Assembly (NCBI GenBank): GCA_963575745.1
Contig: CAUYUJ010000266.1
Span: forward strand, 62,001-116,071
Reading direction: 5' to 3'
Length of the DNA stretch: 54,071 nt
Source of the DNA: Prorocentrum cordatum
Taxonomy: Eukaryota
Translations under genes and position numbers: made by a program
The notes under the pieces: generated by a model
Seen by the model: only the letters and a program-made list of their open reading frames with translations
Database searches by the model: none
Told to the model about the DNA's origin: nothing
Shown here: in pieces, positions 32 through 28,708 of the stretch
Layout of the letters: each line of letters starts with the position of its first letter
Position numbering within the stretch: position 1 is the first letter of the stretch

Positions 32-1718
32 CTAGTTGACCTCAACCTCCGCGTTGTGAATGCCGCGCTGGGGTGTTGGGCCCCTGCCGCGGCCAAGACA
101 CTCGAGCCCCACCAGGCAGCCCAGCGCGACGCCGCAGACCAAGAACAAGATCAACAAGAAGAAGATCAAGACACCAGCGAAGACTGCAATTAATCCCCAT
201 GGCTCGGTGGTGGCTGTGGTGTTTGACGTGTCCGAACTCGTGCTCGTATCGGTGGTCGTCGTGGCCGTCTTGATGGTGATGGTAGTAGTGCTTGACGTCG
301 CGGAACGCGTGCCCGTATCGGCGGTCGTCGTGGCCGTCTTGGTGGTCGTCGCGGTGGTCGTCTCAGTTGTTGCCTCGGTGAAGTCGAGCACGTACGCGGA
401 GCCGGAACTGTCGCCCTGGTCGTCGTCACCATAGGCCCCCACCACCACGCGGGCCCCGTCGGAGCTCACGGCCACCGAGGAACCGAAAAAGTCGTAGGCG
501 GCCCCATCACTCGCCACAAGCTTCAGCAGCCTCTCGCCGGTGGCCCCGTCGAGCACGTACACGGAGCCGGAACCGGAGCCCTGGTCGTCGTCACCTCTGG
601 CCCCCACCACCACGCGGGCCCCGTCGGAGCTCACGGCCACCGAGGAACCGAACAAGTCGTCTGCAGTCCCATCACTCGCCACAAGCTTCAGCAGCCTCTC
701 GCCGGTGGCCCCGTCGAGCACGTACACGGAGCCTGAATTGTAGCCCTGGTCGCCGTCACCACAGGCCCCCACCACCACGCGGGCCCCGTCGGAGCTCACG
801 GCCACCGAGGAACCGAATTTGTCGAAGGCGGCCCCATCACTCGCCACAAGCTTCAGCAGCGTCACGCCGGTGGCCCCGTCGAGCACGTACACGGAGCCGG
901 AACTGGAGCCCTGGTCGCCGTCACCATAGGCCCCCACCACCACGCGGGCCCCGTCGGAGCTCACGGCCACCGAGGAACCGAAAAAGTCGAAGTTGGCCCC
1001 ATCACTCGCCACAAGCTTCAGCAGCGTCACGCCGGTGGCCCCGTCGAGCACGTACACGGAGCCGGAATTGGTGCCCTGGTCGTCGTCACCTATGGCCCCC
1101 ACCACCACGCGGGCCCCGTCGGAGCTCACGGCCACCGACTCACCGAACCAGTCGTCTGCAGCCCCATCACTCGCCACAAGCTTCAGCAGCGTCTCGCCGG
1201 TGGCCCCGTCGAGCACGTACACGGAGCCGGACTTGTAGCCCTGGTCGTCGTCATATCTGCTCCCCACCACCACCCCGGGCCCGTTTGGAGCTCACGGCCA
1301 CCGAGTAACCGAACATGTCGATTGCAGCCCCATCACTCGCCACAAACTTCAGCAGCGTCTCGCCAGTGGCCCCGTCGAGCACGTACACGGAGCCATGAAT
1401 ATTTGACGTATAGTCTTCGTAGTAGTAGTAAACGGCCCCCACCACCACGCGGGCCCCGTCGGAGCTCACGGCCACAGACATTCCGAACCGGTCGTTGGCG
1501 ACCCCATCACCCGCCATGAGTTTGAGCAACTGCACGCCGCTGGTAGACAGGCGCCTCCCGAACTCGGCCTGCGGCTCGCGAGGGCGACCGCTCGCCGAGC
1601 CCTCCACCCTCGGGCGGGCCAGCGTCCCGCTCGCCGGCGACCCGGCGCTCGGGGCGCCGCGCGCTGCCAGCAGCAAGAGCAGCGCGCCGACGCTGTGAGA
1701 CGTGCGCAGGCGCATCAT
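32..1718 (-). CDS. FG-GAP repeat (integrin-alpha-like 7-bladed beta-propeller) type I membrane protein, copy 1; one +1 frameshift near 1274-1287
   Basis: ORFs 1251..1871 and 32..1273 join once one extra base is removed from blade 2. The product has a signal-like N-terminus (MMRLRTSHSVGALLLLLAARG), seven ~54-aa repeats (LLKLVASDGxxxDxFGxSVAVSSDGARVVVGAxxDxDQGxxSGSVYVLDGATG), a Thr-rich stalk, a hydrophobic segment (WGLIAVFAGVLIFFLLILFLVCGVALGCLV) and a short tail. No introns are seen. Confidence 0.88.
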
Positions 1719-1800: not shown

Positions 1801-1813
1801 CTTGAGCCAAAAT
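1801..1813 (-). promoter_or_regulatory. Relict dinoflagellate spliced leader upstream of FG-GAP gene copy 1
   Basis: The minus strand reads ATTTTGGCTCAAG, the last 13 nt of DinoSL (DCCGTAGCCATTTTGGCTCAAG). It lies about 83 nt 5' of the ATG on the same strand. Confidence 0.8.
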
Positions 1814-3369: not shown

Positions 3370-3992
3370 CAAAGAATCCTTTGGAAAGCACCACAAGTGG
3401 TTTCGATTGGAAAGCCCCATAAAAAAGGGAATCCTTTAGAAAATACTACAAGGGGATTCGATTGGAAAGCCTCAAAGTAGGAATCCTTTGGAAAGCACCG
3501 CAAGGGGATTCTATTGGAAAGCCTCACAAAAAAAAGGAATCCCGTGGAAAGCACACAAAAGGATTCGATTGGAAAGCCTCACAAAAAAATGAATTCTTTG
3601 GAAAGCACAGCAAAAAGATTCGATTGGAAAACCTCACAAAAGGAAATCCTTTGGAAAGCACAACAAAGGAATTAGATTGGAAAGCCTCGCAAAAAGGGAA
3701 TCCTTTAGAAAGCACCACACAAGAGATTTGATTGGAAAGCCTGACAAAGGGATTCGATTGGAAAGCCTCACATAAGGAATCCTTTGGAAAGCACCGCAGA
3801 GGGATCCGATTGGAAAGCCTCACAAAAGGAATCCGTTGGAAAACACAACAAAGGGATTGTATTGGAAAGCCTCGCAAAAAAAAAAGGAATCCTTTGGAAA
3901 GCACAACAAAGGGATCCGATTGGAAAGCCTCACAAAAGGAATCCTTTGGAAAGCGCCACAAAGGGAATCGATTGGAAAGCCCCACAAAAAAA
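3370..3992 (+). repeat. ~29-bp satellite (GGAATCCTTTGGAAAGC core), right arm; resumes at 7371-7540
   Basis: About 20 units alternating ggaatcctttggaaagcac and gattggaaagcctcac; interrupted by the element at 3993-7370. Confidence 0.9.
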
Positions 3993-6900
3993 TACCCTGT
4001 GACGTACCCAACCCATTTGTATCATGGGAAGCGAGGAATTGGCCGAAACTTGCATGGACAATCAAATTGCAGGATCCGTTGTTTGATATGTAAACTACTT
4101 GGGACACGCGCCTATGGCATGATGCGCAAGAGAACCATGCAAGAACGAGGGGCGACACCTACAGGCTCGAAGAGGACATGGGGAGTCGGGAACGAAGAGC
4201 TGGAGAAAGACGTGCGGGAAGCCCACTGTGCTGGGCCCCCCAGCAGGCTTCGAAAGTGGCGACAGTTTCACAGATCGCAGCCCCCCAGGGATGGCGAGGT
4301 CTAATTTCAGTCCGCGGTGTGTACTCTGTGCTGGGCCCCCCAGCAGGCCTCGAAAGTGGCGACGGTTTCACAGATCGCAGCCCCCCAAGGATGGCGAGGT
4401 CTAGTTTGAGTCTGCGGTGGGTACCCACTGTGCTGGGCCCCCCAGCAGGCCTCGAAAGTGGCGACCATTTCACAGATCGCAGCCCCCCAGGGATGGCGAG
4501 GTCACATTTGAACCCGCCGTGGGTACCCACTGTGCTGGGCCCCCCAGCAGGCCTCGAAAGTGGCGACAGTTCCACAGATCGCAGCCCCCCAGGGATGGCA
4601 AGGTCTAATCTGAACCCGCGGGGTGTACCCACTGTGCTGGCCCCCCCAGCAGGCCTCGAAAGTGGCGACAGTTTCACAGATCGCAGCCCCCCAGGGATGG
4701 CGAGGTCTAATTTGAACCCGCCGTGTGTACCCACTGCGCTGGGCCCCCCAGCAGGCCTCGAAAGTGGCGACAGTTTCACAGATCGCAGCCCCCCAGGGAT
4801 GGCGAGGTCTAATTGGAGTCCGCGGTGTGTACCCACTGTGCTGGGCCCCCCCAGCAGGCCTCGAAAGTGGCGACGTTCACAGATCGCAGCCCCCCCAGGG
4901 ATGGCGAGGTCAATTTGAACCCGCCGTGTGTACCCACTGCGCTGGGCCCCCCAGCAGGCCTCGAAAGTGGCGACAGTTTCACAGATCGCAGCCCCCCAAG
5001 GATGGCGAGGTCTAATTGGAGTCCGCGGTGTGTACCCACTGTGATGGGCCCCCCAGCAGGCCTCGAAAGTGGCGACAGTTTCACAGATCGCAGCCCCCCA
5101 GGGATGGCGAGGTCTAATTTCAGTCCGCGGTGTGTACATTGTGCTGGGCTCCCCAGCAGGTCTCGAAAGTGGCGACAGTTTCACAGATCGCAGCCCCCCA
5201 GGGATGGCGCGGTCTAGTTTCAGTCAGCGGTGGGTACCCACTGTGTTGAGCCCCCAAGCAGGCCTCGAAAGTAAGGACAGTTTCGCAGATCGCGGCCCCC
5301 CATGGATGGCGAGGTTTAATTTCAGTCCGCGGTGTGTACCCACTGTGCTGGGCCCCCCAGCAGGCCCCGAACGCAACGACAGTTTCACCGATCGCAGCCC
5401 CCCAGGGATGGCGAGGTCACATTTGAATCCGCCGTGGGTACCCACTGTGCTGGGCCCCCCAGCAGGCCTCGAAAGTGGCGACCGTTTCACAGATCGCAGC
5501 CCCCCAAGGATGGCGAGGTCCAATTTGAATCCGCCGTGTGTACCCACTGTGCTGGGCCCCCCAGCAGGCCTCGAAAGTGGCGACAGTTTCACAAATCGCA
5601 GCACCCCAAGGATGGCGAGGTCACATACTTTTGAATCCGCCGTGGGTACCCACTGAGCTGCCCCCCCCCCCCACCCCCCCCCCCAGCAGGCCTCGAAAGT
5701 GCGACAGTATCGCAGAACGCAACCCCCCCAGGGATGGCGAGGTTTAATTTGAATCCGCGGTGTGTACCCACTGTGCTGGGCCCCCCCCCCAGCAGGCCTC
5801 GAAAGTGGCGACAGTTTCACAGATCGCAGCCCCCCAGGGACGGCGAGGTCTAATTTGAATCCGTCGTGTGTACCAGAGTGCTGGGCCCCCCAGCAAGTTC
5901 TCGAAAGTGGTGACAGTTTCACAGATCGCAGCCCCCCAGGGATGGCGAGGTCTAATTTGAATCCGCCGTGTGTGCCCACTGTGCTGGGCCCCCCAGCAGG
6001 CCTCGAAAGTGGCGACAGTTTCACAGATCGCAGCCCCCCAGGGATGGCGAGGTCACATTTGAATCCGCGGTGACTACCCACTGTGCTGGGCCCCCCAGCA
6101 GGCCTGGAAAGTGGCGACAGTTTCACAGATCGCAGTCCCCCAGGGATGGCGAGGTCTAATTTGAGTCTGCGGTGGGCACCCACTGTGCTGGGCCCCCCAG
6201 CAGACCTCGAAAGTGGCGACAGTTTCACAGATCGCAGCCCCCCAGGGATGGCGAGGTCACATTTGAATCCGCCGTGGGTGCCCACTGTGCTGGGCACCCC
6301 AGCAGGCCCCCCGAACGGTGGCGACAGTTTTTACAGATCGCAGCCCCACCAAGGATGGCGAGGTCAAATTTGAATCCGCCGTGGGTGCCCACTGTGCTGG
6401 CCCCCAGCAGCCCTCGAACGTGGCGACAGTTTCACAATCGCAGCCCCCCAGGGATGGCGAGGTCTAATTGGAATCCGCAGTGGGACCCCCTGTGCTGCCC
6501 CTCAGCAGCCCTCGAAAGTGGCGACAGTTTCACAGATCGCAGCCCTCCAGGGATGGCGAGGTCACATTTGAACCCGCCGTGGGTACCCACTGTGCTGGGC
6601 CCCCCAGCGGCCCTCGAAAGTGGCGACAGTTTCACAGATCGCAGCCCCCCAGGGATGGCGAGGTCCCATTTGAATCCGCCGTGGGTGCCCACTGTGCTGG
6701 GCCCCCAGCAGGCCTCGAAAGTGGCGACAGATCGCAGCCCCCCAGGGATGGCGAGGTCTAATTTGAACCCGCCGTGGGTACCCACTGTGCTGGGCCCCCC
6801 AGCAGGCCCCGAACGTGGCGACAGTTTCACAGATCGCAACCTCCCAGGGATGGCGAGGTCCAATCTGAATCCGCCGTGGGTACCCACTGTGCTGGGCCCC

Positions 6901-7370
6901 CCAGCAGCCCTCGAGAGTGGCGACAGTTTCACAGATCGCAGCCCGCAAGGGATGGCGAGGTCAAATTTGAATCCGCCGTGGGTACCCACTGTGCTGGGCC
7001 CCCCAGCAGGCCTCGAACGCAACGACAGTTTCACCGATCGCAGCCCCCCAGGGATGGCGAGGTCAAATTTGCATCCGTCGTGGGTACCCACTGTGCTGGG
7101 CCCCCCAGCGGGCCTCGAAAGTGGCGACAGTTTCACAGATCGCAGCACCCCAGGGATGGCGAGGTCGCATTTGAACCCGCCGTGGGTACCCACTGTGCTG
7201 GGCCCCCCAGCAGGCCTCGACAGTGGCGACGGTTTCACAGATCGCAGCCCCCCAGCTGGCACGCAGCGACGAGCGAAGGCAGGGGGGAAGAGAGGGACGG
7301 GGGGGTGGGAAGGAAGGTTCGCGCGAGCAGTGCTCTATTCAAAACGAGCACCCAACGCAGGAGGGTTGGG
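3993..7370 (-). mobile_element. HINE/DINE-like non-autonomous element, family A (102-bp tandem array, ~30 units)
   Basis: Subterminal IR CCCAACCC (4007-4014) / GGGTTGGG (7363-7370). Right-end hairpin CCCAAC..GTTGGG is preceded by TTCAAAACGAG. The array spans ~4222-7256. Both flanks are A residues within the satellite. Confidence 0.75.
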
Positions 7371-7937: not shown

Positions 7938-9211
7938 TATCCTGGCGACGGACCCAACCATATGCAATTGTGAATAACGCTTTGTGGGTGCCGCTTTCGG
8001 TGGGGCTCCTTATGGGGCCACGAAAAGCGTGCCACGAAACGCTGTCCTGGGCGTGCGGGACGCATGAGGGCGGTAGCATTGGGGCTTTCGGTGGAGCTCC
8101 CTATGGGGCCACGAAACGTGTGAGGGGTGTGCCGAAATGGGCGCGGCGCCGCCATGCGGACGCAGCCACTGGGGCCTTCGGTGGAGCTCCCTATGGGGCC
8201 ACGAAACGTGTGAGGGGTGTGCCGAAATCGGTGCGGCGCCGCCATGCGCCCGCAGCCACTGGGGCCTTCGGTGGAGCTCCCTATGGGGCCACGAAACGTG
8301 TGAGGGGTGTGCCGAAAGGGTGCGGCGCCGCCATGCGCCCGCAGCCACTGGGGCCTTCGGTGGAGCTCCCTATGGGGCCACGAAACGTGTGAGGGTGTGC
8401 CGACATGGGTGCGCCGCCGCCATGCGCCCGCAGCCACTGGGGCCTTCGGTGGAGCTCCCGATGGGCCCACGAAACGGTGAGGGGTGTGCCGAAAATGGGT
8501 GCGCCGCATGCGCCCCGCAGCCACTGGGGCCTTCGGTGGAGCTCCCCATGGGGCCACGAAACGTTGTGAGGGGTGTGCCGAAATGAGGTGCGGCGCCGCC
8601 ATGCGCCCGCAGCCACTGGGGCCCTCGGTGGAGCTCCCTATGGGGCCACGAAACGTGTGAGGGGTGTGCCGAAATGTGTGCGGCGCCGCCATGCGCCCGC
8701 AGCCACTGGGGCCTTCGGTGGAGCTCCATATGGGGCCACGAAACGTGTGAGGGGTGTGCCGAAATGGGTGCGCCGCCGCCATGCGCCCGCAGCCACTGGG
8801 GCTTCCGGTGGAGCTCCCGATGGGGCCACGAAACGTGTGAGGGGTGTGCCGACATGGGTGCGGCGCCGCCATGCGCCCGCAGCCACTGGGGCCCTCGGTG
8901 GAGCTCCCTATGGGGCCACGAAACGTGTGAGGGGTGTGCTGAAATGGGTGCGGCGCCGCCATGCGCCCGCAGCCACTGGGGCCTTCGGTGGAGCCCCCTA
9001 TGGGGCCACGAAACGCGTGAGGGGTGCGCCGTGATAGTGGGAGGAGGGAAGGGGGAGGGGGGAGGAGGCGGAGGAGGAGGAAGGAAGGAAGGAAGGAGAG
9101 GAGAGGAGAGGAGAGGAGAGGAGAGGAGAGGGGAGGAAAGGAGAGGAGTGGAGAGGAGACGCGGGGCACCGTCTCTTCAAAACGAGGACCCAACACCACA
9201 GGATGGTTGGG
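7938..9211 (-). mobile_element. HINE/DINE-like element, family B (90-bp array ~11 units plus (GAGAG)n)
   Basis: Subterminal IR CCCAACCAT / ATGGTTGGG. Right end is TTCAAAACGAGGA-CCCAAC-accacaggatg-GTTGGG followed by an A run. Microsatellite at ~9095-9155. Confidence 0.82.
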
Positions 9212-11645: not shown

Positions 11646-14600
11646 ATCGCGGTGGAAGTCGTGCAGCGTCAGCTTGCGGCCCAGGTATTTCGCGCTTTCC
11701 TCGGCGCTGAGGATTTCGACCTTGTCGTCGTCGATGTCCACGTGTGTAATGCATCGCCCCTGTCGCCTGCTCACATTTGTGGGGATGTTCGTTTTGCCGG
11801 GGCGCAGTGTAAGTCCACACTTCGCTGCTTCGTGTTTGAGGTCCCGCAAGATGCGCTTGAATTGTCGTAGATTGGGTGCTAAGGGAAGTACGTCGTCAGC
11901 AAATCTCAAGTTGGTCAAGCGCGTCGCCTGGGCACTTCCCAATTGTATGCCGAAGCCCTTCCGCGCCCAAGTCGGTTTGATGTTCCGGAAAATTTGCTCG
12001 AGTAGCGCGTTGAGTAAATATGAGCTCAGCGGGTCCCCTTGCTTGACGCCGCGCTCAATGTTGAATTGTCTGCTTCTGACGTCGGTCTTTACCGTGGCTC
12101 TTTGATCGCTGTAGAAATTCTGCAGCATGGTGATGTAGGGTTCTGGCACATCTCGTTTCCTCAGGGCTCCCCACAAAACACAGATGGTCGACGCAGTCGA
12201 AAGCCTTCTTGAAATCGGCAGCAGCCGTCCAGAGTGGGAGCTGCCATTCGTAGGACTGCTCGCAAAGTATAGTTGCAGTGAAGAGGTGATCCTCTGTGCT
12301 TGAGCCCTTGCGGAAGCCAGCTTGGCCAGGCGATTGCTGCGCGTCGAAGAGCGTGTCAAGTCGGTTGCAAAGCAGTCGGGACATGAGTTTGTATAGTAGC
12401 GGTATGATGGCGATGGGTCTGTAGTTGCTTGGTAATTGCGGGTCTCCGGACTTATGGATCACGCTGATGGTGGTGTGTCTCCACGGTTCCGGCGGTGACT
12501 GCTCAAGTGCTATAGCGTCGTCGAAGAGCACCAACAAATGGTTCACGATCGCGCCCCCCCTGCTTGCAGCAGCTCTGCGGTGAGCCCAGCCGTGTCTTTG
12601 CACATGCCGTTTTTGAGATGCTTCGCTGCTTGGCGCAACTCCCCGCAGGTGAATGGTGGAATACTCTGTCGAGGTCACTTTGCTGATTCTTCTTGGGCGT
12701 CTGGGGAGCTGTTGGGCGTAGGCGAAGTAGCGCTTTCAGGGCGTCGGTGCAGCTTCTCATAGAAGTCCGCGAAGACGTCTGTAATTCCCTGTCGGTCCGT
12801 CTCGTCGGAGCCCTTTGCTGTTGTCATGGCCGGTATGAGCTCCTTCTTCTTGCTGGACTTGATCCCAGAGATCTTGTTCAGGCCGCGGAAACTAACGATG
12901 ATGTCGTTCAGGATTGCCTGCCGTTGAGCCCTTTTGATGTCCCGGTGCGCACGTAGAATACGTTTGCTGAGAGCTGTTCGGGTGGTTGTGTCGACGTACG
13001 GTGTGTATCTGCGTTGCGTAGTAAGTGCGTGCAGGTGTTGCTTTGCCGCGTCGTCGTTGCTAGCTGCGCTTTGTTGAAGATGTTGTTGTTGGTCTTGTTG
13101 TTGCTGGTAGTCTCTCTGGGCTGCTACTAGTGCTTTTTCGGTGTGTGCAACGGTGTCTCGGGGACCACTTGGCGGGATGATGGTAGTGAGGTGTCTCTTC
13201 AGATGGTGCTGGAAAACGGGGTCGTTCGGTCGGGGAAGCCCCCGGTGCGTGCGAGTCTGTCGTCGTTTTCGTCGTCGTGTTCGCGGTGTCGCGTCGCCCA
13301 GTGCTAGTCGGACGTGCGCGGCTTGGTGGTCGGAGCCGAGGTCGGGGCACGTCGTTGCAAACGAATCCAGGACCAAATACCGGGCCTGCTGATCCATCAG
13401 AATGTAATCGATCTGCGTTTGCTTGTGGTCGGTGCCAGCGCTCGTGCACGTGAACACGCTGTCAAAATGATTGTAAAACATCGCGTTTGTGATTGTGAGT
13501 TTGCGCACGCACGCCCACGATCGTAGCCGGGTGCCGCGCTGGTTGTACCCGCTCTGCCCGCGGTTGCCAATAGTGCGCTTCTCTGCCCTGCTAGCGCTGG
13601 AATCGTCGTCGTCGTCGCTCCGTTTACCAACTCGTGCGTTGAAGCCTCCTGTGACGATGGTCGTCCGGTGCTGTTGGTGGGCATCAGCGTGTATTTCTGC
13701 AAGTACGTCGTGCATACATTGCGCGCGTTGGTCACTGCATACTCCATGTGGGAAGTAAGCCGCGACGATTCGGAGCAGACGATGCGGGAAGTCGACGTCG
13801 ATGCAGGCGACCCGCTCGTTAACTGCTTTGAAGCTTCGCATGTATCGCGCATGTCGTTTATGAACAAAGAATGCACCTCGCGTCGGACTGTCATGCCCAG
13901 AAACTGCGAATATGTGCGCGCCAGGCTCCGTGACCCAGAACTCTCTTTTTTCTGTCCGCCATGTTTCACTGAGTGCCACGACGTCCCATCGTGCGTCGGA
14001 AAGCTCCTGCAAGAGAAGGTCGATCGCTGTGTCGGCAGTGAAACTCCGGGCGCTTTTGTGTATGACCGTGAAGTTCCTATCATCGTTGCTGCGTCGTGGA
14101 GTCGTGGTCGTGGTTTGTCGGTAGGCTGGTGTTATGGTTGTCGCCGTCGGATAATGCGCGTCCAGCGTCGGCTGCTGGTGGAGAGAGCGCGTTGGTCGCA
14201 AGTCCCACGGTGCGTCACCTTCTGCGTGGCTGCATCGTCCTCGTCCGCCGCCGGTGCTGGATTGAGGTAGTCGCTGTTGTTGCAATTGTAGATGCTGCTC
14301 CGGCTGCGGATGTAAATTCATGCCAGAGGGTGGAGATGAGAGTGGGATGTCGGATATTGGAGGCTGCTGGTCGGAACGCTGGGTTGGAGGGGCCTGGGAG
14401 TCGACAGATGGAGGTAGACATGTGGATGGTGGGCGCTGGAGGTCGATCGGTGGAGGCGGGAGTGGGACGTCGGATGCTGGAGGCGGAGTCGCAGAGGACG
14501 AGGTCGGAGACACCCGGAACGAATAATGATGACCATGTCCATGTCGAGGCTCCTTGTCAGCACAAGGAGTTGGATACCTTGCGCGCGAATGTAGAACTGG

Positions 14601-14783
14601 CCGCAAGAGTGAAACCATGTCTTGCGAAGCCTTGGAGTGCATGTCGCTTGGCCCCGGGTCGTCAGGCCGAACATCAGGTCGCCGAGAACCGTGCTGATGA
14701 TGCAGAGTCCTGTCTGGTACCTTGACGGCTTGCCTGGCCGCGTCATGGGTGTCAACAATAATCTGTGCATCATGTTCCCCCAT
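11645..14783 (-). pseudogene. LINE ORF2 (AP endonuclease plus reverse transcriptase), disrupted
   Basis: APE motifs: WDVVALSETWR, TGGFNARVG, QIDYIL, GSDHQ. RT motifs: NYRPIAII, QAGFRKG, DFKKAFDCV, GVKQGDPLS, LRFADD, KYLG. There is an in-frame TGA at 12675 and frameshifts near 12555 and 12170. Confidence 0.93.
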
Positions 14784-18791: not shown

Positions 18792-20547
18792 CTAGATCTC
18801 CGCGACCTGCTCCGACTCGTTGTACTCGTTGTCCTCAACTTCCGCGTTGTCAATGTCGCGCTCGGGTGTTGGGCTCCTGCCACGGCGAGGACATCTGCGC
18901 TTCACCAGGCAGCCCAGCGCGACGCAGCAGACCAAGAACAAGATCAAGACACCAGCGAAGACTGCAATTAATCCCCATGGCTCGGTGGTGGCTGTGGTGT
19001 TTGACGTGTCCGAACTCGTTGTCTCGGTGGTTGTCTTGATGATGGTAGTAGTGCTTGACGTCGCGGAACTCGTGCCCGTATCGGTGGTCGTCGTGGCCGT
19101 CTTGGTGGTCGTCTTGGTGGTCGTCTCAGTTGTTGCCTCGGTGAAGTCGAACACGTACGCGGAGCCTGAATTGTAGCCCTGGTCGTCGTCATAGTAGGCC
19201 CCCACCACCACGCGGGCCCCGTCGGAGCTCACGGCCACCGAGTAACCGAAATAGTCGAGTGCAGCCCCATCACTCGCCACAAGCTTCAGCAGCCTCTCGC
19301 CGGTGGTGCCGTCGAACACGCACGCGGAGCCGGAACCCCAGCCCTGGTCGTCGTCACGTTTGCTCCCCACCACCACGCGGGCCCCGTCGGAGCTCACGGC
19401 CACCGAGTAACCGAACCAGTCGTCATAAGCCCCATCACTCACCACAAGCTTCAGCAGCCTCTCGCCGGTGGCCCCGTCGAGCACGTACACGGAGCCAGAA
19501 TCGTAGTACCTGGTCGTCGTCCACGGTAGGCCCCCACACACGCGGGGCCCGTCGGAGCTCACGGCCTCCGAATAACCGAAATGTCGCCTGCGGCCCACAC
19601 TCGCCACAGCTTGAGCGCGCGATCGACGGTGGGCCCGTCGAGCCCTACCGGAGCCAGAATCGGCGCCTGGTGTTCGTCGTCACGGAATGCCCCACCACCA
19701 CGCGGGCCACGCGGAGCTCACGGCCAGAGTAACCGAAAACAGGTTCGCCTTCAACCCATCACTCGCCAACCTTCAGCAGCCTCTCGCGGTTAGTACGTCG
19801 AACAGTAGCGGAGCCGGAATTGGTGCCACTTGGTCGTCGGCACCAGTGGCCCCCCACCACACGCGGGGCCCCGACGGAGTCTCATCTCTATCCACCACCT
19901 CACCCCCCCACCACTGCTCCTCCACATCGCCTTTCTCCTCTCCCACCTCCCCCTCGCACGGCCACCGAGTCACCGAAATTGTCGCGTGCAGCCCCATCAC
20001 TCGCCACAAGCTTCAGCAGCCTCTCGCCGGTGGCCCCGTCGAGCACGTACGCGGAGCCGGAATAGACGTCATCCTTGTCGTTTCCCACCACCACGCGGGC
20101 CCCGTCGGAGCTCACGGCCACCGAGATTCCGAATCTGTCGCCTGTAGGCCCATCACTCGCCACAAGCTTGAGCAGACTCTCGCCGGTGGTACCGTCGAGC
20201 ACGTACGCGGAGCCAAACGTAATGGGCTCACGCTGGACGTCATCGTAGTAGTAGTAGTAAACGGCCCCCACCACCACGCGGGCCCCGTCGGAGCTCACGG
20301 CCACCGACGTTCCGAACCAGTGGCTGTCGACCCCATCACCCGCCAAGAGCTTGAGCAACTGCGCGCCGCTGGTAGACAGGCGCCTCCCGAACTCGGCCTG
20401 CGGCTCGCGAGGGCGTCCGCTCGCCGAGCCCTCCACCCTCGGGCGGGCCAGCGTCCCGCTCGCCGGCGACCCGGCGCTCGGGGCGCCGCGCGCTGCCAGC
20501 AGCAAGTGTAGCGCGCCGACGCTGTGAGACGTGCGCAGGCGCATCAT
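18792..20547 (-). pseudogene. FG-GAP repeat membrane protein, copy 2; middle blades corrupted (~19500-19960)
   Basis: ORFs 19900..20766 and 18792..19607 give the same signal peptide, blades, Thr stalk and TM segment. Many indels lie between them and may be sequencing error. Confidence 0.85.
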
Positions 20548-20632: not shown

Positions 20633-20645
20633 CTTGAGCCAAAAT
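20633..20645 (-). promoter_or_regulatory. Relict spliced leader upstream of FG-GAP gene copy 2
   Basis: Minus strand ATTTTGGCTCAAG, about 86 nt 5' of the ATG. Confidence 0.8.
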
Positions 20646-20749: not shown

Positions 20750-21037
20750 TTGGTGATGCTTTCCAAAGGATTCCTTTTGTGAGGCTTTTAAAAATAATCC
20801 CTTTGTGGCGCTTTCCAAAGGATTGTTTTTTTTGTTTTTTTTTGTTTTGCGAGGCTTTCCAATAGAATACTTTCGTTGTGCTTTCCAAAGGATTCCTGCT
20901 GTGAGGCTTTCCAATAGAATCCCTTTGTTGCGCTTTCCAAAGGATTCCTTGTGTAAGGTTTTCCAATCGAATCTCTTTATTGTGCTTTCAAAAGAATTCC
21001 TTTTTTTGTGAGGCTTTCCAGTAGAATCCCTTTGTGA
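20750..21037 (-). repeat. ~29-bp satellite, duplicate of 1912-2185
   Basis: ctttccaaaggatt units. Confidence 0.85.
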
Positions 21038-21267: not shown

Positions 21268-21367
21268 NNNNNNNNNNNNNNNNNNNNNNNNNNNNNNNNN
21301 NNNNNNNNNNNNNNNNNNNNNNNNNNNNNNNNNNNNNNNNNNNNNNNNNNNNNNNNNNNNNNNNNNN
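21268..21367. other. Assembly gap (100 N)
   Basis: Run of N. Confidence 1.
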
Positions 21368-23058: not shown

Positions 23059-23715
23059 TCCTCCTCCTCCCGCCCCCTCCGTTTTCCGCCTCCTCCTTCC
23101 TGCTCCTCCACCTCCTCCGCCTCCTCCTCCTTCCCCCCCTTCCTCCTCCTCCCCTCTCCTCCCTCCTCATTCCTCCTTCCTTTCCTCTCATCTCCTCCTC
23201 CTCAGTCGAACATCCCCCCTCCCCAGCCTCCTCGAAATTCCTACTCCTCCTCCTCGACATTCCTCCTCCTCCTCCCCTTCCTCCGCCTCCTCCGCCTCCG
23301 CCTCCATCCCCTCCACCCCACGCTCTCCTTCTCCTCCTCCTCCTCCTCATCTTCCTCCTCTCCCTCCTCATCGTCATCATAATCCTCGTCCTCATCCTCC
23401 TTCTCCTCCTCCTGCCCCTCCTCCTCCTCCTCCTCCTCCTCCTCCCTCCTCCTCCTTCCTCTTCCTCATCCTCATCCTCATCCTCCTGTCCCTCCTCCTC
23501 CCCCTCCTACTCCTTCCTTCCTCAACCACTCCCCACCCCCCCTCCCCCCCCTCCTCCTCCTCCTCCCTCCTCTCCTCCTCCTCCCTTCCTCCTCCAGCCC
23601 TCCTCCTCCTCCTCCCCCCTTCCTCCTCCCCTCCTCCTCCTCCTCCTCCCTCCTCACCCTCCTACTTCCCTCCCTCCTCCCCCTCCTCCTCCCCCTCCTC
23701 CTCTTCCTACCCCTC
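23059..23715. repeat. (CCT)n polypyrimidine tract
   Basis: About 650 bp of degenerate CCT repeats. Confidence 0.95.
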
Positions 23716-26700
23716 CTGTTGGCTCCTGTTGGCTCCATAGCAGTCTGTTACCGCTGGCCAAGCCTGCAATAAAGCTGCGAAAAACAGTGCTGGGAAAAGG
23801 AAGGATAAATGGGTCGGGGAGGGGTCGCGCCGCCTTGGACGCCCAGCACAACCCATCCCAGACCAGGGGGACCGACCTCCCCACGAACTTCTTTGAACTG
23901 GGGTCGATTCCCCCTTTAAGCATCTCCAGAGATTCTTCTGCGTGCCGATTGCGCGGACCCCCGCGGCATTCCTGGTGGAGGCACGGGCGGGCCCGAGCGC
24001 CTCCAAACGCAGCGCAACGCACACACCAGGCAACCTTCCCCCCCATCAGCCACAGACGATGGCTCTTGTGGCAGGTCCGCGCAATTTCCGGCGGCCCTCC
24101 GCAGGGAAACACACAGACCGCGGCGCGAGTCTTCCCTCGCTCCCCGCAGTGGAGACACAAATATGAACCTTTCGCTATACACTCGACCGCATGGCCTCTC
24201 GGGTCTGGGACCAGCTCCAGGAGAGACGGCCTGGCCCGACGGGGCCTGCGGATTCTGGAAACGTCGGGAAAACCACGGGCCGATAAATCATCCATAATTT
24301 CCGCAATCAGCCAAGCCGACTGCCTAATCAGAGGCGCCAAACCTTTAAACTGATCACGCGTCCAAGGGTTGTGGGGTTGGGCCTCGGCACCACGACGGGC
24401 CAGCTCATCAGCCCTCTTATTGCCCCGCCATTTCCAATCTTCAACTACCAGCCTACGGGCCTGGGCCAGGGAGAGGTGAGACCTGATCTTAGTCACAGAG
24501 ATCCTATCGGGCCCTATCTCAGCAGCGAGCCTGAAAATGACCTCCCAGAGCTCCGAGAAAGCAACCTTTTCCAGATCCTGAGTAGGCCCCATCTTCCAGG
24601 TGTCCAGGACGGCCTTGCAGTCTGTGACCATCTCCATGGCCTCAGGCCCCGCGAGCCTCAAAGCCATGACCAGCGCATGCACTTCCCCGCAGCCACTGGT
24701 CTGGACAGCGTGGGGCAGCGGTCCGAACGCAGACCCAGTAACATATCCTCCCCAAGAATCCAAAGACATGGATATGACCGCCCATCCAGCTCTCGTGAAC
24801 TGAGGTAACATGGGGTCCAATCCAGACCCATCCAGACAAATTATCGGCCCCAGGTGTCCCCCAGGAGGAAACACATCCCACTTGTGACCAGCTACGGTGT
24901 GCGGCGCTGGCCACTGCCACTCTGGACTCGGGGCAAGCGCGCGTGTGACCAGCAACTGGTTAGCAGGCGTGCAATCCAATGCGAGAAGATCGCCCGCATC
25001 TAGGTCACGCCGAACAGCGGCATGAGCTGGGCAGCAGCGGAAGCGATGACTGGGCGTGCCCAGCCTTTCTCCACAAAGCTGGCAGAGGGGGTCCACAACA
25101 CGACGATCGTCATACAGAATCAGCTGGGTTGGGTAGCCTCCAGAAACAATCCAAGCGAGTCCCGTGGCTGCCGTGAACCTTTCTTCTCCCCGAAGCTTCT
25201 GAAGGACCTCGATGACGGGCTCGAGCATAGGCCCTCCTGAAAGACCTGGGACTCTGACACCATCTCCCAAACCTCTCAGCAGCATATCCCGAACGGCCTG
25301 GAGAAGAACAACCTTGAGCGACCTGTATCCCAAGACGCTCACATCTACTTCAACTCCCCGAACAGTCACAAACTTGCACCAGCTTTTTACCTGCCAACCC
25401 AGCCTTTCGATCGTGAGGACTACTGCGCCCGCGGGTCCACGGACATCTTGCCACCCTCGGGCAGGTCGGCGATAAAACGAATTGAAACACTCCTCCATGA
25501 CGCGCTGCTCTGCCCAGCGCAAGCGAGCGGCTTGTCCCCAAGCAAGGATGGGTAACGCATGCACGCCATATGATGGATCCGCCTTGGGCTCCACCGAGAG
25601 GAGAAACTTCGACGTCCTGCACCTCCCTTTTGGAGTCCCAAAGAGCGCACTCCCCAAACTGGCAGGAAGCTGGCCCAGAGCGGAGGTGGACATACCATTG
25701 ACACGGCAGCCGTAAGTGGCCGAGGGAAGGCCTCCCGTCCTAGCAACCTTGAACAAACCCTTCTTGGTACTGCTGAGCCCTCGGAGTCTGCCCCTCCGAA
25801 GCCTGATTTTATGCAGCCGTTTTTGGAGGACCTTGGATCCCTTGGCTCCTTTCTGCATCGTCTGGTCGCAGCCCAGGTTCCGCCCAGAGCTAGCGCCAGT
25901 AAAATTCCACTTCTTCAGCCTAGACACAATGGTCACCCTCGCCGCCGAGTGACTGCAACGGACGAGGCCCTTCGACCTCGAGATCACCAGTAGCAGCTTC
26001 TCGAGCTGCAGGCGCAGAAAGTACACGGCTCGGGGCGGGACGCTCTCGACATGCTTCCTACTGCCCGAGGCCTGCGCCGTGATGTCGTCTACTACATTGA
26101 ACAACTGCACACTAAAGTAAAGCTCCCTGGCGAGGTCCACGGGGCCCATGAGCATAACACGTAAAAGCGTAGTCGCGAAACCGCAGCCTGCCAGGATCCC
26201 TTGGAACGCCTGCACGGGGTTTCCAACCACACCACACACATTGATGATTCTTCTCGCACGGTAGAGCGACAGCAAAAGGCGCAGCTTCACCAAACTAAAC
26301 TTATGCTTGACGGCCGCGACGGCCAGCAGATAATGGCAAACCTTCTCGCAGGCCTTAGCGAGGTCCACGAGGCGCGAGCCTGAACAGCCGCCTGCACTGA
26401 CATGCTGCTCGACCGTCAAGCTCTGCTCCCAAACCGCTCGTTCGCAGCTCTTGCCGTCCACACCGTAAAGATAAGCACGATTATTATCGCGCTCCCAACG
26501 CTTTATCTCGCCCCGCGACAGCTTGGAGAACACACGCGTGGGTGTGGGCAGCAGAGCTATCGGGCGAAAACCTCCTTCGAGCTTCCCCAACATGGCAAGG
26601 ATGGTGATGAGGAGGGTGGTGGGGTAGGTGCCCAAGAGCTCCATATTCGGCCACAGCGCACCCAAAACCTCAAGTAGGCCATCCGAGGCCTTGTCCAGGC

Positions 26701-28708
26701 CCCGAGGCCGAAGCGCATCCACTCCAGCCGCCGTCCTTTTCGGAAACTTCCGGATGGCAACCCTGATGTCCCCCACGGACCGCTCCTCCGAACATAGCTC
26801 CTGGACCGAGACTCCCTGCTCGTCAGCCTGGGACTGGATCTGGTGCGTCAGGAACTGGATGGGATCGGGGAACTTCGAGGCCTCTGGGAGGGGCTCCCAG
26901 ATGTCACACCAGAACTTGGTAAGCCCATCGACCGTCTCTTGAGGTCCCAGCGGGGCCGAGAATTCTCCAGCCTTGACCGTGCTTGACTCAGGGGGAACCC
27001 AGCCGATCGGGCACTGTGAATACTTGCGCGCCTTGCCAGCGCCAGCAGATACAGCCTCCTGCACCCACTCTCGCCAACGCTTGCCACGCTCCGCGGTAAA
27101 CTTGCGTTCATACACTTTAGCAAAGCCTTCAGCCTCAACGCCCCAGGCCTGCAACTGCTCGAGGGAGGCGTGGAACATACTTCCAAAAGACGGGACCCAC
27201 TGCTGCCAGGACATGTCTTTGCGCAACTGCTTGGGTCCCCACTCGACCGCCTTCAGAAGCCCCATAGACTCGCCCTCACCCCATCTGAGTCCCCGTCTCT
27301 TGATGTAAACCAGCTCCGAGAAAAGCTTGGAAACGCGACGCCACCCACGACTCTCGGGACATCCGACGGGATACCGACCTCCAGACGTCCTGACAGCTGA
27401 TACTTTCACAATGGTAGGCCCCTCCGCTCTACCAAAGTACTGCTTCTGCTCCAAGACTCCGTGATAGGCCCCGAGCTCACGTTCCAGCGACTCGACGAAT
27501 AACCGATAGCACGCATCCAACGACTCACGATCCCCAACCGATCGAGCAGAGTCCAGGAGCTCCCGATAATCGAGTGGTTCTGGCATGGGTCCTATCACAC
27601 TGTCCTGCGGGAAAGCCCCCGGCTGGCGGAGCGACTGGACCAGCACGCTCAAGGGCTCGCTGCGAAACTTGACCACGACGGGCCAGTGCGGCTTCGTCGA
27701 CGCCTTCCCACTGATGGCACAAGAATGGACGCTAGCCGCCAGACCTGCAGACATCACAAAATAATCAATCGTTTTCCAGACCTTGGCGGTGGACCTACAC
27801 GTGTAGGAAGCTGGCTTCACAATCTGTCCCCCAAGACGACCAGCCCACCCCAACTCCAGGAATCTATCTGGTGATACGTTCCAGTCGCCTCCAAGGACAA
27901 ACGGTAAGCCCCAAGAATGTAACTGCTCTCCGATTCTACTCAATATTTGGCCCCCAGTGGGCCCCAATGGGTCCTGGTCGGGCAAGTAGATGGACCCAAT
28001 GATGAGCCCCCCTGGCACATACGCGTTGACCCACATCAGCTGCTGGCGATGCGGGCTCGGCAAGCGCTTGACGTCCGTCGGCGGCAAGCCCAGCCCGACG
28101 AAATCCCTGCACGCAACCGTGACACCTCCTGACAGGCCTCCAGCCTCGGTGACCTCCGACGGGTGGATCGACGCCTGCCAGCCTAGCTTCTTCAACTGAG
28201 CCTCACAATCAACACGATCCGACGGGTCGACAGTTAGTTCCTGAAGCATGACGATCTGACTCGATGCTTCCCCCTGGAGAAACTGCTTCGCCGAGGACCA
28301 AGCCGTGGTATTACAGGTTTCTAGACAGAAAAACTCTCCCTGGCTAGACCTGGACGATGTATTCTTACTCTGCCCTGGCTGGGCAGACCTAATCTTACGA
28401 ACAACTTGTGGCCCTGTAAGAGGCCTGGCACTAGGGGGAGGAGGAAGAGCTGGGGACGGCAGATCGGGGGGATGGGATGTCGGCGGGGGCGGGGGCCAAA
28501 CAAGGGACCGAAAGAAAATCCCAGGCGGCCGCGACGGACCCGCCGCCGCGTTGCCCCACCAGCAGGTGGGGCAAGGCAGGCTGCTACCCACCAGACGTTT
28601 TCCCCTGGGCCCCTCCTGCCGCCCCAGACGCGCCTGGGACGCCTCCAGCTTCCCTTCCAGCACCGCTTCCTCCTCCCTTGCTGCCAAGTGCCTCGGCGGC
28701 CCTAGCAT
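23654..28708 (-). mobile_element. Non-LTR retrotransposon ORF (1684 aa): APE endonuclease, RT, zinc finger, RNase H, C-terminal Cys/His fingers
   Basis: APE motifs: MLQEL, SGGV, GGDWN, IDYF, PHWPV. RT motifs: FRPIALLP, VDLAKA, QGILAGC, VVDD. Zinc finger: CQLC..SH..C. RNase H motifs: LDGSG, AGWAV, GEVHAL, VTDC, KIRSH, GNKRADELA. The frame is uninterrupted. Confidence 0.93.

What the first reader, a model, noticed from the sequence alone, without database searches (positions are those of the whole stretch)
380..1530. FG-GAP propeller with a near-invariant scaffold and hypervariable Tyr/Trp/Asp-rich loops: possible diversified receptor family
Seen in the sequence: the seven ~162-bp blades are almost identical in scaffold DNA, including third codon positions, but two loops change by several bases. 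Copy 1 loop 1 reads VANDR, AAIDM, AADDW, ANFDF, AAFDK, TADDL, AAYDF. Copy 1 loop 2 reads VYYYYEDYTSNIH, RYDDDQGYK, IGDDDQGTN, YGDGDQGSS, CGDGDQGYN, RGDDDQGSG, YGDDDQGDS. The paralogue has different loops (VDSHW, PTGDR, AARDN, AYDDW, AALDY; VYYYYYDDVQREPITF, NDKDDVY, KRDDDQGWG), while its signal peptide and 5' UTR are nearly unchanged. Established: integrin-alpha FG-GAP propellers bind ligands through loops on one face. Inference: this is a stalked type I surface receptor whose binding face is diversifying by positive selection or blade shuffling, as in variable repeat receptors.
Basis: partly seen in the sequence, partly recalled or inferred. Interest (0 to 1): 0.8.

Follow-up and report, generated by a model that had tools for sequence, protein, structure and literature searches.

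The report
Dinoflagellate surface propeller with hypervariable face
A bloom-forming dinoflagellate carries a family of membrane-anchored, integrin-like propeller proteins whose seven blades are almost identical in DNA except for eight fast-changing positions per blade on one face, which looks like a diversified binding surface built on a design also used by many bacteria and viruses.

Summary
On the minus strand, 1718-32 encodes a signal peptide, seven FG-GAP_2 blades, a Thr-rich stalk, a membrane anchor and a short tail. The blade period is 165 bp, not 162. A second copy lies at 20547-18792.

Variation is concentrated at eight codons per blade: 11, 12, 14, 17, 33, 34, 40 and 41. Over seven clean blades, scaffold synonymous divergence is 0.032. 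Non-synonymous divergence at the eight codons is 0.52. The non-coding flank between the two copies differs by 4.3%.

An AlphaFold model has pTM 0.83 and is most like integrin-alpha propellers. It places all eight positions in the loops of one face.

At least 27 protein clusters named Prorocentrum cordatum, on 16 contig sizes, share the leader. Both window copies have broken frames; for copy 2 this is probably assembly noise.

The design is not unique. Bacterial, viral and Aureococcus FG-GAP_2 propellers vary at the same positions, and this scan noted it before on other DNA (e1-5306782). Their ratios are much lower (0.8-5.7, against 16 here).

My reading is a germline-diversified surface recognition family, evolving like the WD40 repeats of fungal NLRs. 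No ligand or function was tested. I class it as a new variant of a known kind, of moderate interest.

The parts
32..1718 (-). Copy 1 gene as assembled: ATG at 1718-1716, stop at 34-32. The frame is broken once, in blade 2.
   Evidence: ORFs 1251-1871 and 32-1273. Sequence read. Pfam PF14312 FG-GAP_2 at 4.3e-83 and 3.1e-16.
1530..1718 (-). Leader. A signal-peptide-like N-terminus (MMRLRTSHSVGALLLLLAARGAPSAG) is followed by about 37 residues that are disordered in the model.
   Evidence: Maximum KD(9) is 2.93 at residue 10. pLDDT is below 50 for residues 1-57 of the P0002 model. The leader is 89-100% conserved in most of the 27 family clusters.
383..1529 (-). Seven-blade FG-GAP_2 propeller. DNA repeat units start at 1529, 1355, 1189, 1024, 859, 694 and 529. 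Hypervariable codons are 11, 12, 14, 17, 33, 34, 40 and 41 of each 55-codon unit.
   Evidence: units; entropy; pS and pN; fold.
1255..1286 (-). Frame break in blade 2: a net +1, made of several small indels and substitutions relative to the other blades.
   Evidence: The close relative P0006 has this blade intact.
200..382 (-). Thr/Ser-rich stalk of 61 residues (32 Thr; 64% Thr+Ser). I infer it is mucin-like.
   Evidence: Length variants appear in other runs (joint 380->277).
104..199 (-). Hydrophobic membrane span (WGLIAVFAGVLIFFLLILFLVCGVALGCLVGL).
   Evidence: Maximum KD(19) is 3.33.
32..103 (-). Short basic-then-acidic cytoplasmic tail (23 residues) and the stop codon.
   Evidence: The same tail occurs in P0001 and P0004.
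1801..1813 (-). Relic of the dinoflagellate spliced leader (its 3' 13 bases), 83 bases upstream of the ATG.
   Evidence: Exact match; 0.06 matches expected by chance. RNA-type contigs of two studies stop at about 1794-1796 while DNA-type runs continue, which is a weak hint.
18792..20547 (-). Copy 2 (paralogue), same architecture. Wherever the window is clean, it is identical to database protein P0002.
19520..19955 (-). Indel-riddled stretch of copy 2 (blades 4-5), plus an 83-base G-rich insert at its 5' side.
   Evidence: 68 of 160 P0002 residues are recovered as colinear exact 4-mers, with 11 frame switches. TRF reports 8% indels.
20633..20645 (-). Relic spliced-leader motif upstream of copy 2.

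Best explanation
The region is the ectodomain of a type I membrane protein of a dinoflagellate. By protein identity it is Prorocentrum cordatum or a very close strain. The ectodomain is a closed seven-bladed FG-GAP_2 (integrin-alpha-like) beta-propeller. It is held away from the membrane by a Thr-rich, probably O-glycosylated stalk.

The gene belongs to a species-restricted family of at least about 16 loci. All share the leader, and at least some share the stalk and anchor.

Within and between family members the blade scaffold is kept nearly identical at the DNA level. I infer this comes from recent blade and gene duplication plus gene conversion, that is, concerted evolution. Retroposition also contributed, because relic spliced leaders lie upstream of both copies.

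Eight codons per blade are kept different and turn over fast under diversifying selection. All eight lie in the 4-1 loop, the start of strand 1, or the two ends of the 2-3 loop, so they sit on one face. The result is a germline repertoire of propellers, each with about 56 variable, Tyr-rich contact residues around conserved DDDQG hairpins.

The likely role is recognition or adhesion to varied external ligands, such as glycans or surface proteins of bacteria, prey, viruses or other cells.

Shown here: the architecture, the fold, the family, the location of the variable sites and the rate contrast. Inferred: gene conversion, selection as the cause, surface exposure and binding.
For: Domain and fold:
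- Pfam FG-GAP_2 at 273.8 bits against a cut-off of 23.
- AlphaFold model of P0002 (copy 2 in another assembly): pLDDT 86.4, pTM 0.83, four strands per repeat.
- The best Foldseek PDB matches are mostly integrin alpha propellers; the top one is 3fcs_C at 3.8e-18.
- A profile search of PDB sequences hits only integrin alpha chains, 12 of 12.

Variable sites:
- In 50 unique internal blades, the 8 positions have 2.1-3.7 bits of entropy. The other 47 have 0.96 bits or less.
- 71 unique blades give 68 distinct 8-residue signatures. Tyr makes up 17.1% of them (97 of 568).

Rates:
- Scaffold pS 0.032 and pN 0.034; hypervariable pN 0.52 (7 blades, 21 pairs).
- The non-coding flank between the two copies differs by 4.3%.
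- GC3 is 0.50 at hypervariable codons and 0.88 in the scaffold, p = 1.8e-9. This fits recent turnover.
- P0006 differs from copy 1 over blades 4-7 at 5 of 32 hypervariable positions and 1 of 160 others.
- A contig of run X1 covering 434-560 differs from the window only at 498 and 499. Both bases lie in hypervariable codon 11 of blade 7.

Face: the hypervariable loops (positions 5-14 and 33-42) alternate with the invariant loops (22-26 and 50-54) along the beta-meander.

Family: 27 clusters share the leader. All are named P. cordatum and they carry 16 different contig lengths.

Homogenisation: minor scaffold variants are gene-specific in some members. Copy 1 and P0006 have VYLAT in all internal blades; P0123 has V[HQ]FTT.
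Against: - No ligand, localisation or expression of this particular copy is shown.
- Both window copies have broken frames as assembled. Several database family members also contain out-of-frame blade translations, for example P0125 and P0003. Part of the family may therefore be pseudogenes.
- The hypervariable class was chosen because it varies. The 21 blade pairs are not independent. Only 7 blades of DNA were available, and Nei-Gojobori ignores recombination.
- The same positions vary in all FG-GAP_2 propellers examined. In 14 metagenome loci the ratio of hypervariable pN to scaffold pS is only 0.8-5.7, median 1.55. Low structural constraint therefore explains part of the pattern.
- The face assignment uses topology and recalled integrin knowledge, not model coordinates.
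Confidence: 0.6

Rival explanations
1. Relaxed constraint only. The eight positions are simply free to drift. The scaffold is conserved by purifying selection and codon preference, and no diversifying selection or special homogenisation is involved.
For: The same positions are the variable ones across the whole FG-GAP_2 family (consensus). In 14 metagenome loci the hypervariable pN is about equal to, or a few times, the scaffold pS (0.8-5.7).
Against: In the window, hypervariable pN (0.52) exceeds scaffold pS (0.032) about 16-fold. It also exceeds the non-coding flank divergence between the copies (4.3%) about 12-fold. Neutral sites cannot diverge faster than neutral DNA next to them. If conversion homogenises the 165-bp units, neutral sites embedded in them should be homogenised too.
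Confidence: 0.12
2. Multivalent lectin-type adhesion protein. Each blade forms a sugar pocket around the conserved DDDQG hairpin, as in propeller lectins. The protein would serve general adhesion, aggregation or mucus binding. Blade-to-blade variation would tune avidity or sugar preference rather than encode a recognition repertoire.
For: The acidic hairpin is conserved in every blade. FG-GAP_2 propellers are fused to carbohydrate-related and adhesin modules such as dockerin, CBM27 and C1q (leads only). VCBS-like propellers are said to be typically associated with carbohydrate recognition (PMC9218822, passages). Fungal seven-blade integrin-like lectins exist (recalled from memory, not checked).
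Against: This does not explain 68 different signatures in 71 blades, or the 16-fold rate excess. No canonical Dx[DN]xDG calcium motif is present. This rival overlaps the best explanation, because a glycan ligand is compatible with a diversified repertoire.
Confidence: 0.18
3. Artefact or dead genes. The loop differences, or the whole pattern, come from assembly errors in a collapsed repeat. Alternatively the copies are decaying pseudogenes.
For: There is a frame break in copy 1, 11 frame switches in copy 2, an N run at 21268-21367, and out-of-frame stretches in some database models.
Against: The loop strings of copy 2 are identical in P0002. Those of copy-1 blades 6-7 are identical in P0006, which comes from other assembled contigs. 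Differences sit in whole codons at fixed positions, not at random. Outside the two damaged patches the frames are open, and scaffold pN is as low as pS. Decay confined to 430 bases between perfectly matching flanks looks technical rather than biological.
Confidence: 0.05
4. Targeted or somatic diversification. A dedicated mechanism would write variation into the eight codons within a lineage. Candidates are reverse-transcriptase-based mutagenic homing as in diversity-generating retroelements, or assembly from donor cassettes as in lamprey VLRs.
For: Reverse-transcriptase genes lie in the window. A large pool of near-identical blades could serve as conversion donors.
Against: The RT ORFs carry apurinic-type endonuclease and RNase H domains, as LINE-like retrotransposons do. 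Hypervariable codons differ at all three codon positions and involve all four bases, not adenines only. No template repeat was seen among the repeats of the window. The available runs are contigs and cannot show within-culture heterogeneity.
Confidence: 0.03

Closest known systems
HNWD / NLR WD40 repeat genes of Podospora anserina (het-d, het-e, het-r family). Sources: PMC1805685 (abstract and outline seen) and PMC4986451 (passages seen).
   Same: A beta-propeller built of highly similar repeats. The repeats evolve in concert within and between members of a gene family. A few positions per repeat, on the interaction surface, are under diversifying selection. Repeat number varies.
   Different: Those are cytoplasmic STAND ATPases with WD40 blades and four variable positions per repeat. 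This is an extracellular, membrane-anchored FG-GAP_2 propeller with eight. Fungal RIP has no counterpart here. A non-self recognition role is genetically proven there and untested here.
Highly repetitive FG-GAP/VCBS propellers of prokaryotes (PMC9218822, passages seen), together with the bacterial, viral and metagenomic FG-GAP_2 proteins seen here.
   Same: The same Pfam family and blade design, with variation at the same positions. Internal blade identity reaches 0.83 in non-dinoflagellate proteins. Frame-disrupted copies are also reported in that paper.
   Different: That paper reports highly repetitive FG-GAP members only in archaea and bacteria. Here the host is a eukaryote and the layout is signal peptide, stalk and membrane anchor. 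The synonymous divergence of the scaffold is much lower (0.032 against 0.04-0.79). The ratio of hypervariable to neutral divergence is much higher (16 against 0.8-5.7).
Integrin alpha subunit head (for example alphaIIb in 3fcs, alphaV in 1jv2).
   Same: A seven-blade FG-GAP propeller on a type I membrane protein. It is the best structural match and the only PDB sequence-profile match. Ligand contacts in integrins use the 4-1 and 2-3 loops (recalled).
   Different: There are no Dx[DN]xDG calcium hairpins, no thigh or calf domains and no GFFKR motif. No beta subunit is known. In integrins the blades have diverged from each other; here they are near-identical.
Expanded integrin-like family of the diatom parasite Pirsonia diadema (PMC13524835, passages seen).
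   Same: A lineage-specific expansion of membrane proteins with FG-GAP-type repeats in a marine protist. It is proposed to act in cell-cell interaction, and bacterial relatives are prominent.
   Different: Pirsonia proteins carry FG-GAP_3 plus EGF domains and vary widely in architecture. The passages read do not describe near-identical blades with fixed hypervariable positions.
Lamprey variable lymphocyte receptors (recalled from memory, not checked).
   Same: A repeat scaffold with variable residues on one face, stalk-anchored at the cell surface.
   Different: An LRR solenoid assembled somatically from cassettes. Nothing here indicates somatic assembly.

Membership tests
Pfam PF14312 FG-GAP_2 propeller | Profile match above the curated cut-off, in several repeats | tested here: met
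   273.8 bits against a cut-off of 23, in 6 stretches of the 413-aa ORF. The other three ORF pieces score 59.7-107 bits.
Pfam PF14312 FG-GAP_2 propeller | Closed propeller of four-stranded blades | tested here: met
   The AlphaFold model of P0002 has pTM 0.83, with 347 of 476 residues at pLDDT 90 or more. There are four strands per repeat, seven FG strands and seven LLKL strands. The first LLKL strand is N-terminal, which implies a Velcro closure. The fold matches integrin propellers.
Integrin alpha subunit | Seven FG-GAP blades in a type I membrane protein | tested here: met
Integrin alpha subunit | Dx[DN]xDG calcium-binding hairpins in the 1-2 loops of the last blades | tested here: not met
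   The motif is absent from both copy-1 pieces and from P0002, P0005 and P0008 (0 matches in 5 of 5 sequences). The 1-2 loop is the 5-residue SSDGA.
Integrin alpha subunit | Thigh and calf leg domains, and a GFFKR motif after the membrane span | tested here: not met
   Pfam finds no such domain. A 61-residue Thr/Ser stalk stands in their place. No GFF[KR]R is present.
Integrin alpha subunit | Obligate heterodimer with a beta subunit | not tested
   No whole genome is held for this window, so no search for a beta subunit was possible.
Concerted-evolution repeat receptors (fungal NLR type) | High internal repeat conservation | tested here: met
   Mean pairwise blade identity has a median of 0.78 in 25 family proteins, up to 0.91. 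Scaffold pS is 0.032. The 85% threshold used for fungi (PMC4986451) is reached by only some members.
Concerted-evolution repeat receptors (fungal NLR type) | A few hypervariable positions per repeat on the interaction surface, with non-synonymous rate above neutral | tested here: met
   The test is a crude site-class comparison, not a site model.
Concerted-evolution repeat receptors (fungal NLR type) | Exchange of repeats within and between genes; repeat-number polymorphism | tested here: inconclusive
   Scaffold variants are gene-specific in some members. P0006 blade 5 combines a loop like copy-1 blade 4 with the loop of copy-1 blade 5. Database models have 3-7 blades, but gene-model and assembly errors cannot be excluded.
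Concerted-evolution repeat receptors (fungal NLR type) | STAND NTPase (NACHT/NB-ARC) architecture, cytoplasmic | tested here: not met
   No such domain is found. A signal peptide and a membrane anchor are present instead. It works like this family but is not a member.
Diversity-generating retroelement target | Template repeat, nearby dedicated RT, adenine-specific changes | tested here: not met
   The RTs are LINE-like, with endonuclease and RNase H domains. Changes occur at all bases and all codon positions. No template copy was seen.

The most novel reading that the evidence does not exclude
Prorocentrum cordatum may maintain a combinatorial recognition repertoire at its cell surface. The pool would be well over a hundred propeller blades spread over at least about 16 loci. 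Inter-blade gene conversion would keep reshuffling them, and selection for new specificities would sharpen them. This would amount to an innate, immune-type or kin/prey/bacterium-recognition system in a free-living unicellular alga. It would be built on the same module that phages and giant viruses use to bind their hosts.
Probability: 0.2. Interest if true: 0.8.

Novelty: new variant of a known kind. Interest (0 to 1): 0.5.

Why it matters
Dinoflagellates interact intensely with bacteria, prey, parasites and viruses, yet almost nothing is known about their surface recognition molecules. This is a species-restricted family of membrane-anchored propellers with a strongly diversifying face. That makes it a concrete, testable candidate for such a function in a harmful-bloom species.

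The finding also extends the 'near-identical repeats plus hypervariable sites' mode of evolution. That mode is documented for cytoplasmic fungal NLRs and for prokaryotic propellers. Here it appears in an extracellular eukaryotic receptor architecture.

The finding is tempered in two ways. The blade design is shared with many bacterial and viral FG-GAP_2 proteins, and nothing functional has been tested.

Tried and rejected
- Own genome: none is held, so paralogues could be collected only as database proteins, not as DNA.
- Reads: only Logan contigs were available. Bins from 1233 to 1386, which hold the copy-1 frame break, had no cover in any of the 4 runs laid. The break could therefore be neither confirmed nor removed. 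Contigs cannot show within-culture heterogeneity or expression level.
- Metagenome scan for more family DNA: 36 of 245 matched stretches encode relatives. 35 of these are at most 52% identical in the best segment and one is 64%. None is dinoflagellate-like, so no further DNA of this family was obtained. I used these loci only as a comparison set. 19 of the 36 were given to the script, and 14 had three or more equal-length blades.
- First version of that comparison: it used a wrong register for the 2-3 loop. It was discarded and redone.
- tblastn of P0002 and P0006 against the window: too confounded by the repeats to show the frame switches. It was replaced by the k-mer chain.
- PDB search with the single sequence: no match. 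Only the profile reached integrins.
- Earlier scan notes by place and by sequence: nothing.
- Literature: 'Prorocentrum cordatum' + 'FG-GAP' gave 0 papers. 'dinoflagellate' + 'FG-GAP' gave 6, none about such a family. 'Prorocentrum' + 'integrin' gave 12, none relevant by title or abstract. 'PF14312' or 'FG-GAP_2' gave 4, none on this topic by title. One search was too unspecific to be of use.
- A DGR-like mechanism and a canonical integrin identity were considered and rejected (see the membership tests).
- The 83-base G-rich insert in copy 2 (about 19880-19955) could not be settled as an intron or as assembly junk.
Full report
ANATOMY

The feature lies on the minus strand. An ATG at 1718-1716 opens a leader, MMRLRTSHSVGALLLLLAARGAPSAG..., whose hydrophobic core scores KD(9) 2.93. 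Seven tandem units follow, starting at 1529, 1355, 1189, 1024, 859, 694 and 529. After them come:
- a 61-residue stalk with 32 Thr (64% Thr+Ser);
- a 32-residue hydrophobic span with KD(19) 3.33;
- a 23-residue tail, with the stop at 34-32.

Pfam assigns the repeats to PF14312 FG-GAP_2 (273.8 bits against a cut-off of 23).

A second copy with the same layout lies at 20547-18792. It sits in a segmental duplication that also repeats the flanking 52-bp, 102-bp and 90-bp satellites. Only these two copies are in the window. The rest of the window holds satellites and LINE-like retrotransposon ORFs.

CHECK OF THE OBSERVATION

Three corrections apply.
- The period is 165 bp, not about 162.
- Blade 2 of copy 1 carries a net +1 indel near 1255-1286, so the gene is two ORFs as assembled.
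- Blades 4-5 of copy 2 (about 19520-19955) are full of indels.

Among copy-1 blades 3-7, 18 of 24 nucleotide columns in the variable codons differ, against 5 of 120 in the scaffold (Fisher p = 9.8e-14). The upstream non-coding DNA of the two copies differs at 12 of 282 aligned columns. The leader coding part differs at 4 of 187. The stalk, anchor and tail are 88% alike.

ORGANISM, FAMILY AND THE BROKEN FRAMES

A database search gave 2935 significant relatives among 8000 scored candidates. The closest named ones are all 'unnamed protein product [Prorocentrum cordatum]'.

P0002 (476 aa) is identical to copy 2 wherever the window is clean (leader, blades 1-3, 6 and 7). It has clean blades 4-5 where the window is garbled. 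In the garbled stretch, 68 of 160 P0002 residues are recovered as colinear exact 4-mers, with 11 frame switches. Damage confined to 430 bases between perfect flanks looks like unpolished assembly rather than decay. I put this at about 85%.

P0006 is 93% identical to copy 1 and has blade 2 intact. I therefore also lean towards an artefact for copy 1, at about 65%. The available runs did not cover that place.

The leader alone finds 27 protein clusters of 297-947 residues. All are named P. cordatum, and they carry 16 different contig lengths. The anchor and tail find only 5 clusters, all of the same family. Some database models contain out-of-frame blade translations (P0003, P0125). Real pseudogenes or the same assembly problem therefore exist there too.

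WHERE THE VARIATION SITS

I cut 26 family proteins and the window ORFs at the LLKL anchor. This gave 102 blades of exactly 55 residues, 69 of them unique. I set 19 aside. These were terminal blades, blades running into frame-shifted sequence, and two window blades that end in GVT rather than GE.

In the remaining 50, positions 11, 12, 14, 17, 33, 34, 40 and 41 have entropies of 2.08-3.68 bits, with 10-16 residue types each. All 47 other positions have 0.96 bits or less.

With five more proteins added, 107 blades gave 71 unique ones and 68 different eight-residue signatures. At these positions Tyr is 17.1% (97 of 568, about 5.9 times a typical protein), Trp is 2.6 times typical and Asn 2.1 times (the background frequencies are general knowledge).

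Blade 1 always carries a longer, Tyr-run 2-3 loop, for example VYYYYEDYTSNIH.

RATES

I applied Nei-Gojobori counts to the seven clean 55-codon blades in the window: copy-1 blades 3-7 and copy-2 blades 6-7, giving 21 pairs over codons 1-48.
- Scaffold: pS 0.032, pN 0.034.
- Eight variable codons: pN 0.52, pS 0.25.

The scaffold's synonymous divergence matches the non-coding flank (4.3%). The variable codons have thus diverged about 16 times faster than neutral DNA beside them.

GC3 is 0.50 at the variable codons (28 of 56) against 0.88 in the scaffold (246 of 280; p = 1.8e-9). Over distinct codons it is 17 of 33 against 42 of 49. These codons are therefore out of step with the gene's codon usage, as expected for recent replacements.

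Over blades 4-7, P0006 and copy 1 differ at 5 of 32 variable positions and 1 of 160 others. A 127-base contig of run X1 (434-560) differs from the window only at 498 and 499. Both bases lie in variable codon 11 of blade 7.

Caveats: the site class was chosen because it varies, the pairs are not independent, the sample is small, and recombination is ignored.

STRUCTURE AND FACE

The AlphaFold model of P0002, built with a 77-row alignment, has mean pLDDT 86.4 and pTM 0.83, with 347 of 476 residues at 90 or above. Only the leader, the long blade-1 loop and the C-terminus score low.

Each repeat, in the LLKL register, reads as follows:
- strand 55/1-4;
- loop 5-14;
- strand 15-21 (FGxSVAV);
- loop 22-26;
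- strand 27-32;
- loop 33-42;
- strand 43-49;
- loop 50-54.

In an antiparallel meander, successive loops alternate between the two faces. The loops that hold the variable positions (5-14 and 33-42) therefore share one face. Position 17 sits at that end of the inner strand. The invariant loops (SSDGA and GATGE) lie on the other face. By recalled integrin nomenclature the variable loops are the 4-1 and 2-3 loops, which form the ligand-binding face. I could not inspect coordinates.

There are seven FG strands and seven LLKL strands, and the first LLKL strand precedes blade 1. The N-terminal strand therefore probably closes the last blade.

Foldseek's best PDB matches are mostly integrin alpha heads (3fcs_C at 3.8e-18, TM 0.59 by query). 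A sequence profile hits 12 PDB sequences, all integrin alpha (best 3e-8).

The protein is not an integrin. It has no Dx[DN]xDG calcium hairpins, no GFFKR motif and no leg domains.

THE DESIGN IS WIDESPREAD

The consensus of 77 homologues, most of them not from P. cordatum, leaves the same positions undefined.

Mean internal blade identity has a median of 0.78 in 25 family members. In 82 others the median is 0.65, reaching 0.83. This set is biased towards consensus-like hits.

Bacterial proteins whose C-terminal ends look like PEP-CTERM anchors (my reading, not tested), a type I membrane protein of the pelagophyte Aureococcus (P0097), and metagenome loci all show near-identical blades that vary at FGx, GAxx, Gxx and AxDx.

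The protein atlas lists FG-GAP_2 propellers fused to phage-tail trimerisers, C1q (giant viruses), sortase and dockerin (leads only). An earlier report of this scan (e1-5306782) reached the same conclusion on other DNA.

At the DNA level the dinoflagellate genes stand apart. In 14 metagenome loci the scaffold pS is 0.04-0.79, and the ratio of hypervariable pN to scaffold pS is 0.80-5.70 (median 1.55). Here the ratio is 16.

P0072, a more distant P. cordatum FG-GAP_2 protein, has blades that differ throughout the scaffold. The uniform scaffold is therefore a property of the leader-bearing subfamily.

HOW IT MOST LIKELY WORKS

The scaffold's DNA uniformity calls for recent amplification and/or continuing gene conversion among blades and genes. 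Several observations fit this:
- Some members have gene-specific scaffold variants in all their blades.
- P0006 has a mosaic blade 5.
- Both copies carry the 3' 13 bases of the dinoflagellate spliced leader 83 bases upstream of the ATG (0.06 expected by chance). This marks them as descendants of a retroposed mRNA (principle from PMC6050394, of which I saw only the start of the abstract in a search listing; the leader sequence itself is recalled).

Conversion would also erase differences at the eight codons unless selection keeps them different. I therefore read the pattern as concerted evolution plus diversifying selection on a binding face. This is the mode described for the WD40 repeats of fungal NLRs (PMC1805685, abstract; PMC4986451, passages).

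The likely function is recognition of, or adhesion to, varied external ligands. Whether these are glycans (a lectin-like reading, around the conserved DDDQG hairpin) or proteins is open.

NOVELTY

Each of the following is in print:
- highly repetitive FG-GAP propellers, reported for archaea and bacteria (PMC9218822, passages);
- expanded integrin-like families in a protist (PMC13524835, passages);
- concerted evolution with hypervariable sites in fungi.

My searches found no description of this dinoflagellate family, or of an extracellular eukaryotic receptor family evolving in this mode. Supplements and papers outside the library were not seen. I class it as a new variant of a known kind, of moderate interest.

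Noticed in passing
window 1801-1813 (-) and 20633-20645 (-): The 3' 13 bases of the dinoflagellate spliced leader stand in the genome 83 bases upstream of the ATG of both gene copies (0.06 matches expected by chance). This marks the genes as descendants of a retroposed, trans-spliced mRNA. RNA-type contigs of two studies stop at about 1794-1796 while DNA-type runs continue, a weak hint that today's trans-splice site is the relic's own AG.
   Followed up: partly
window 23654-28708 (-), 33884-37139 (-), 12675-14783 (-): There are LINE-like retrotransposon ORFs. One is an uninterrupted 1684-aa ORF with weak endonuclease and RNase H matches. Another pair of ORFs carries a clear reverse transcriptase (9.5e-31) and an endonuclease. 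A third ORF has endonuclease only. They are a possible source of the retroposition machinery.
   Followed up: partly
window 4222-7255 and 28706-30514; 8080-9031, 31334-32378, 38185-39275 and 41514-43364; 1921-2187, 3374-3992 and 20851-21035: Large satellite arrays of 102-bp, 90-bp and 52-55-bp units recur in both halves of a roughly 19-kb segmental duplication that carries the two gene copies. The 52-bp array lies directly upstream of each gene.
   Followed up: no
window 19880-19955 (-): An 83-base G-rich insert interrupts blade 3 of copy 2. It is absent from protein P0002. It could be an intron with unclear borders or assembly junk at the edge of the garbled stretch.
   Followed up: partly
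window 61-158 and 277-380: Contigs of other runs join 61 to 158. This removes 96 bases, or 32 codons, comprising most of the membrane span and part of the tail. The joined form stands in X1 and X6 and matches the tail of P0004, P0009 and P0033. Other contigs repeat 104 bases of the stalk (380 back to 277, in X1 and X5). Anchor-less and stalk-length variants of the family therefore exist as DNA.
   Followed up: partly
proteins P0097, P0054, P0118; loci L001, L005, L036 and others: The pelagophyte Aureococcus has a type I membrane protein with seven near-identical FG-GAP_2 blades. Bacterial proteins with PEP-CTERM-like ends (my reading, not tested) and many metagenome loci show the same hypervariable positions. 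In several loci hypervariable pN is 2-6 times scaffold pS, so diversifying selection on this face may be common in the family.
   Followed up: partly
window 365-1189 (-) and 19128-19457 (-): Hypervariable codons are AT-rich and often end in T or A (GC3 0.50), within a gene whose scaffold GC3 is 0.88. This is a compositional signature of recent replacement that could be used to find such sites elsewhere.
   Followed up: yes
window 44650-45319, 51258-52078, 23059-23717, 21268-21367: There are long (TACA)n, (ATAC)n and (TCC)n microsatellites, and a 100-base run of N (a scaffold gap) just upstream of copy 2.
   Followed up: no
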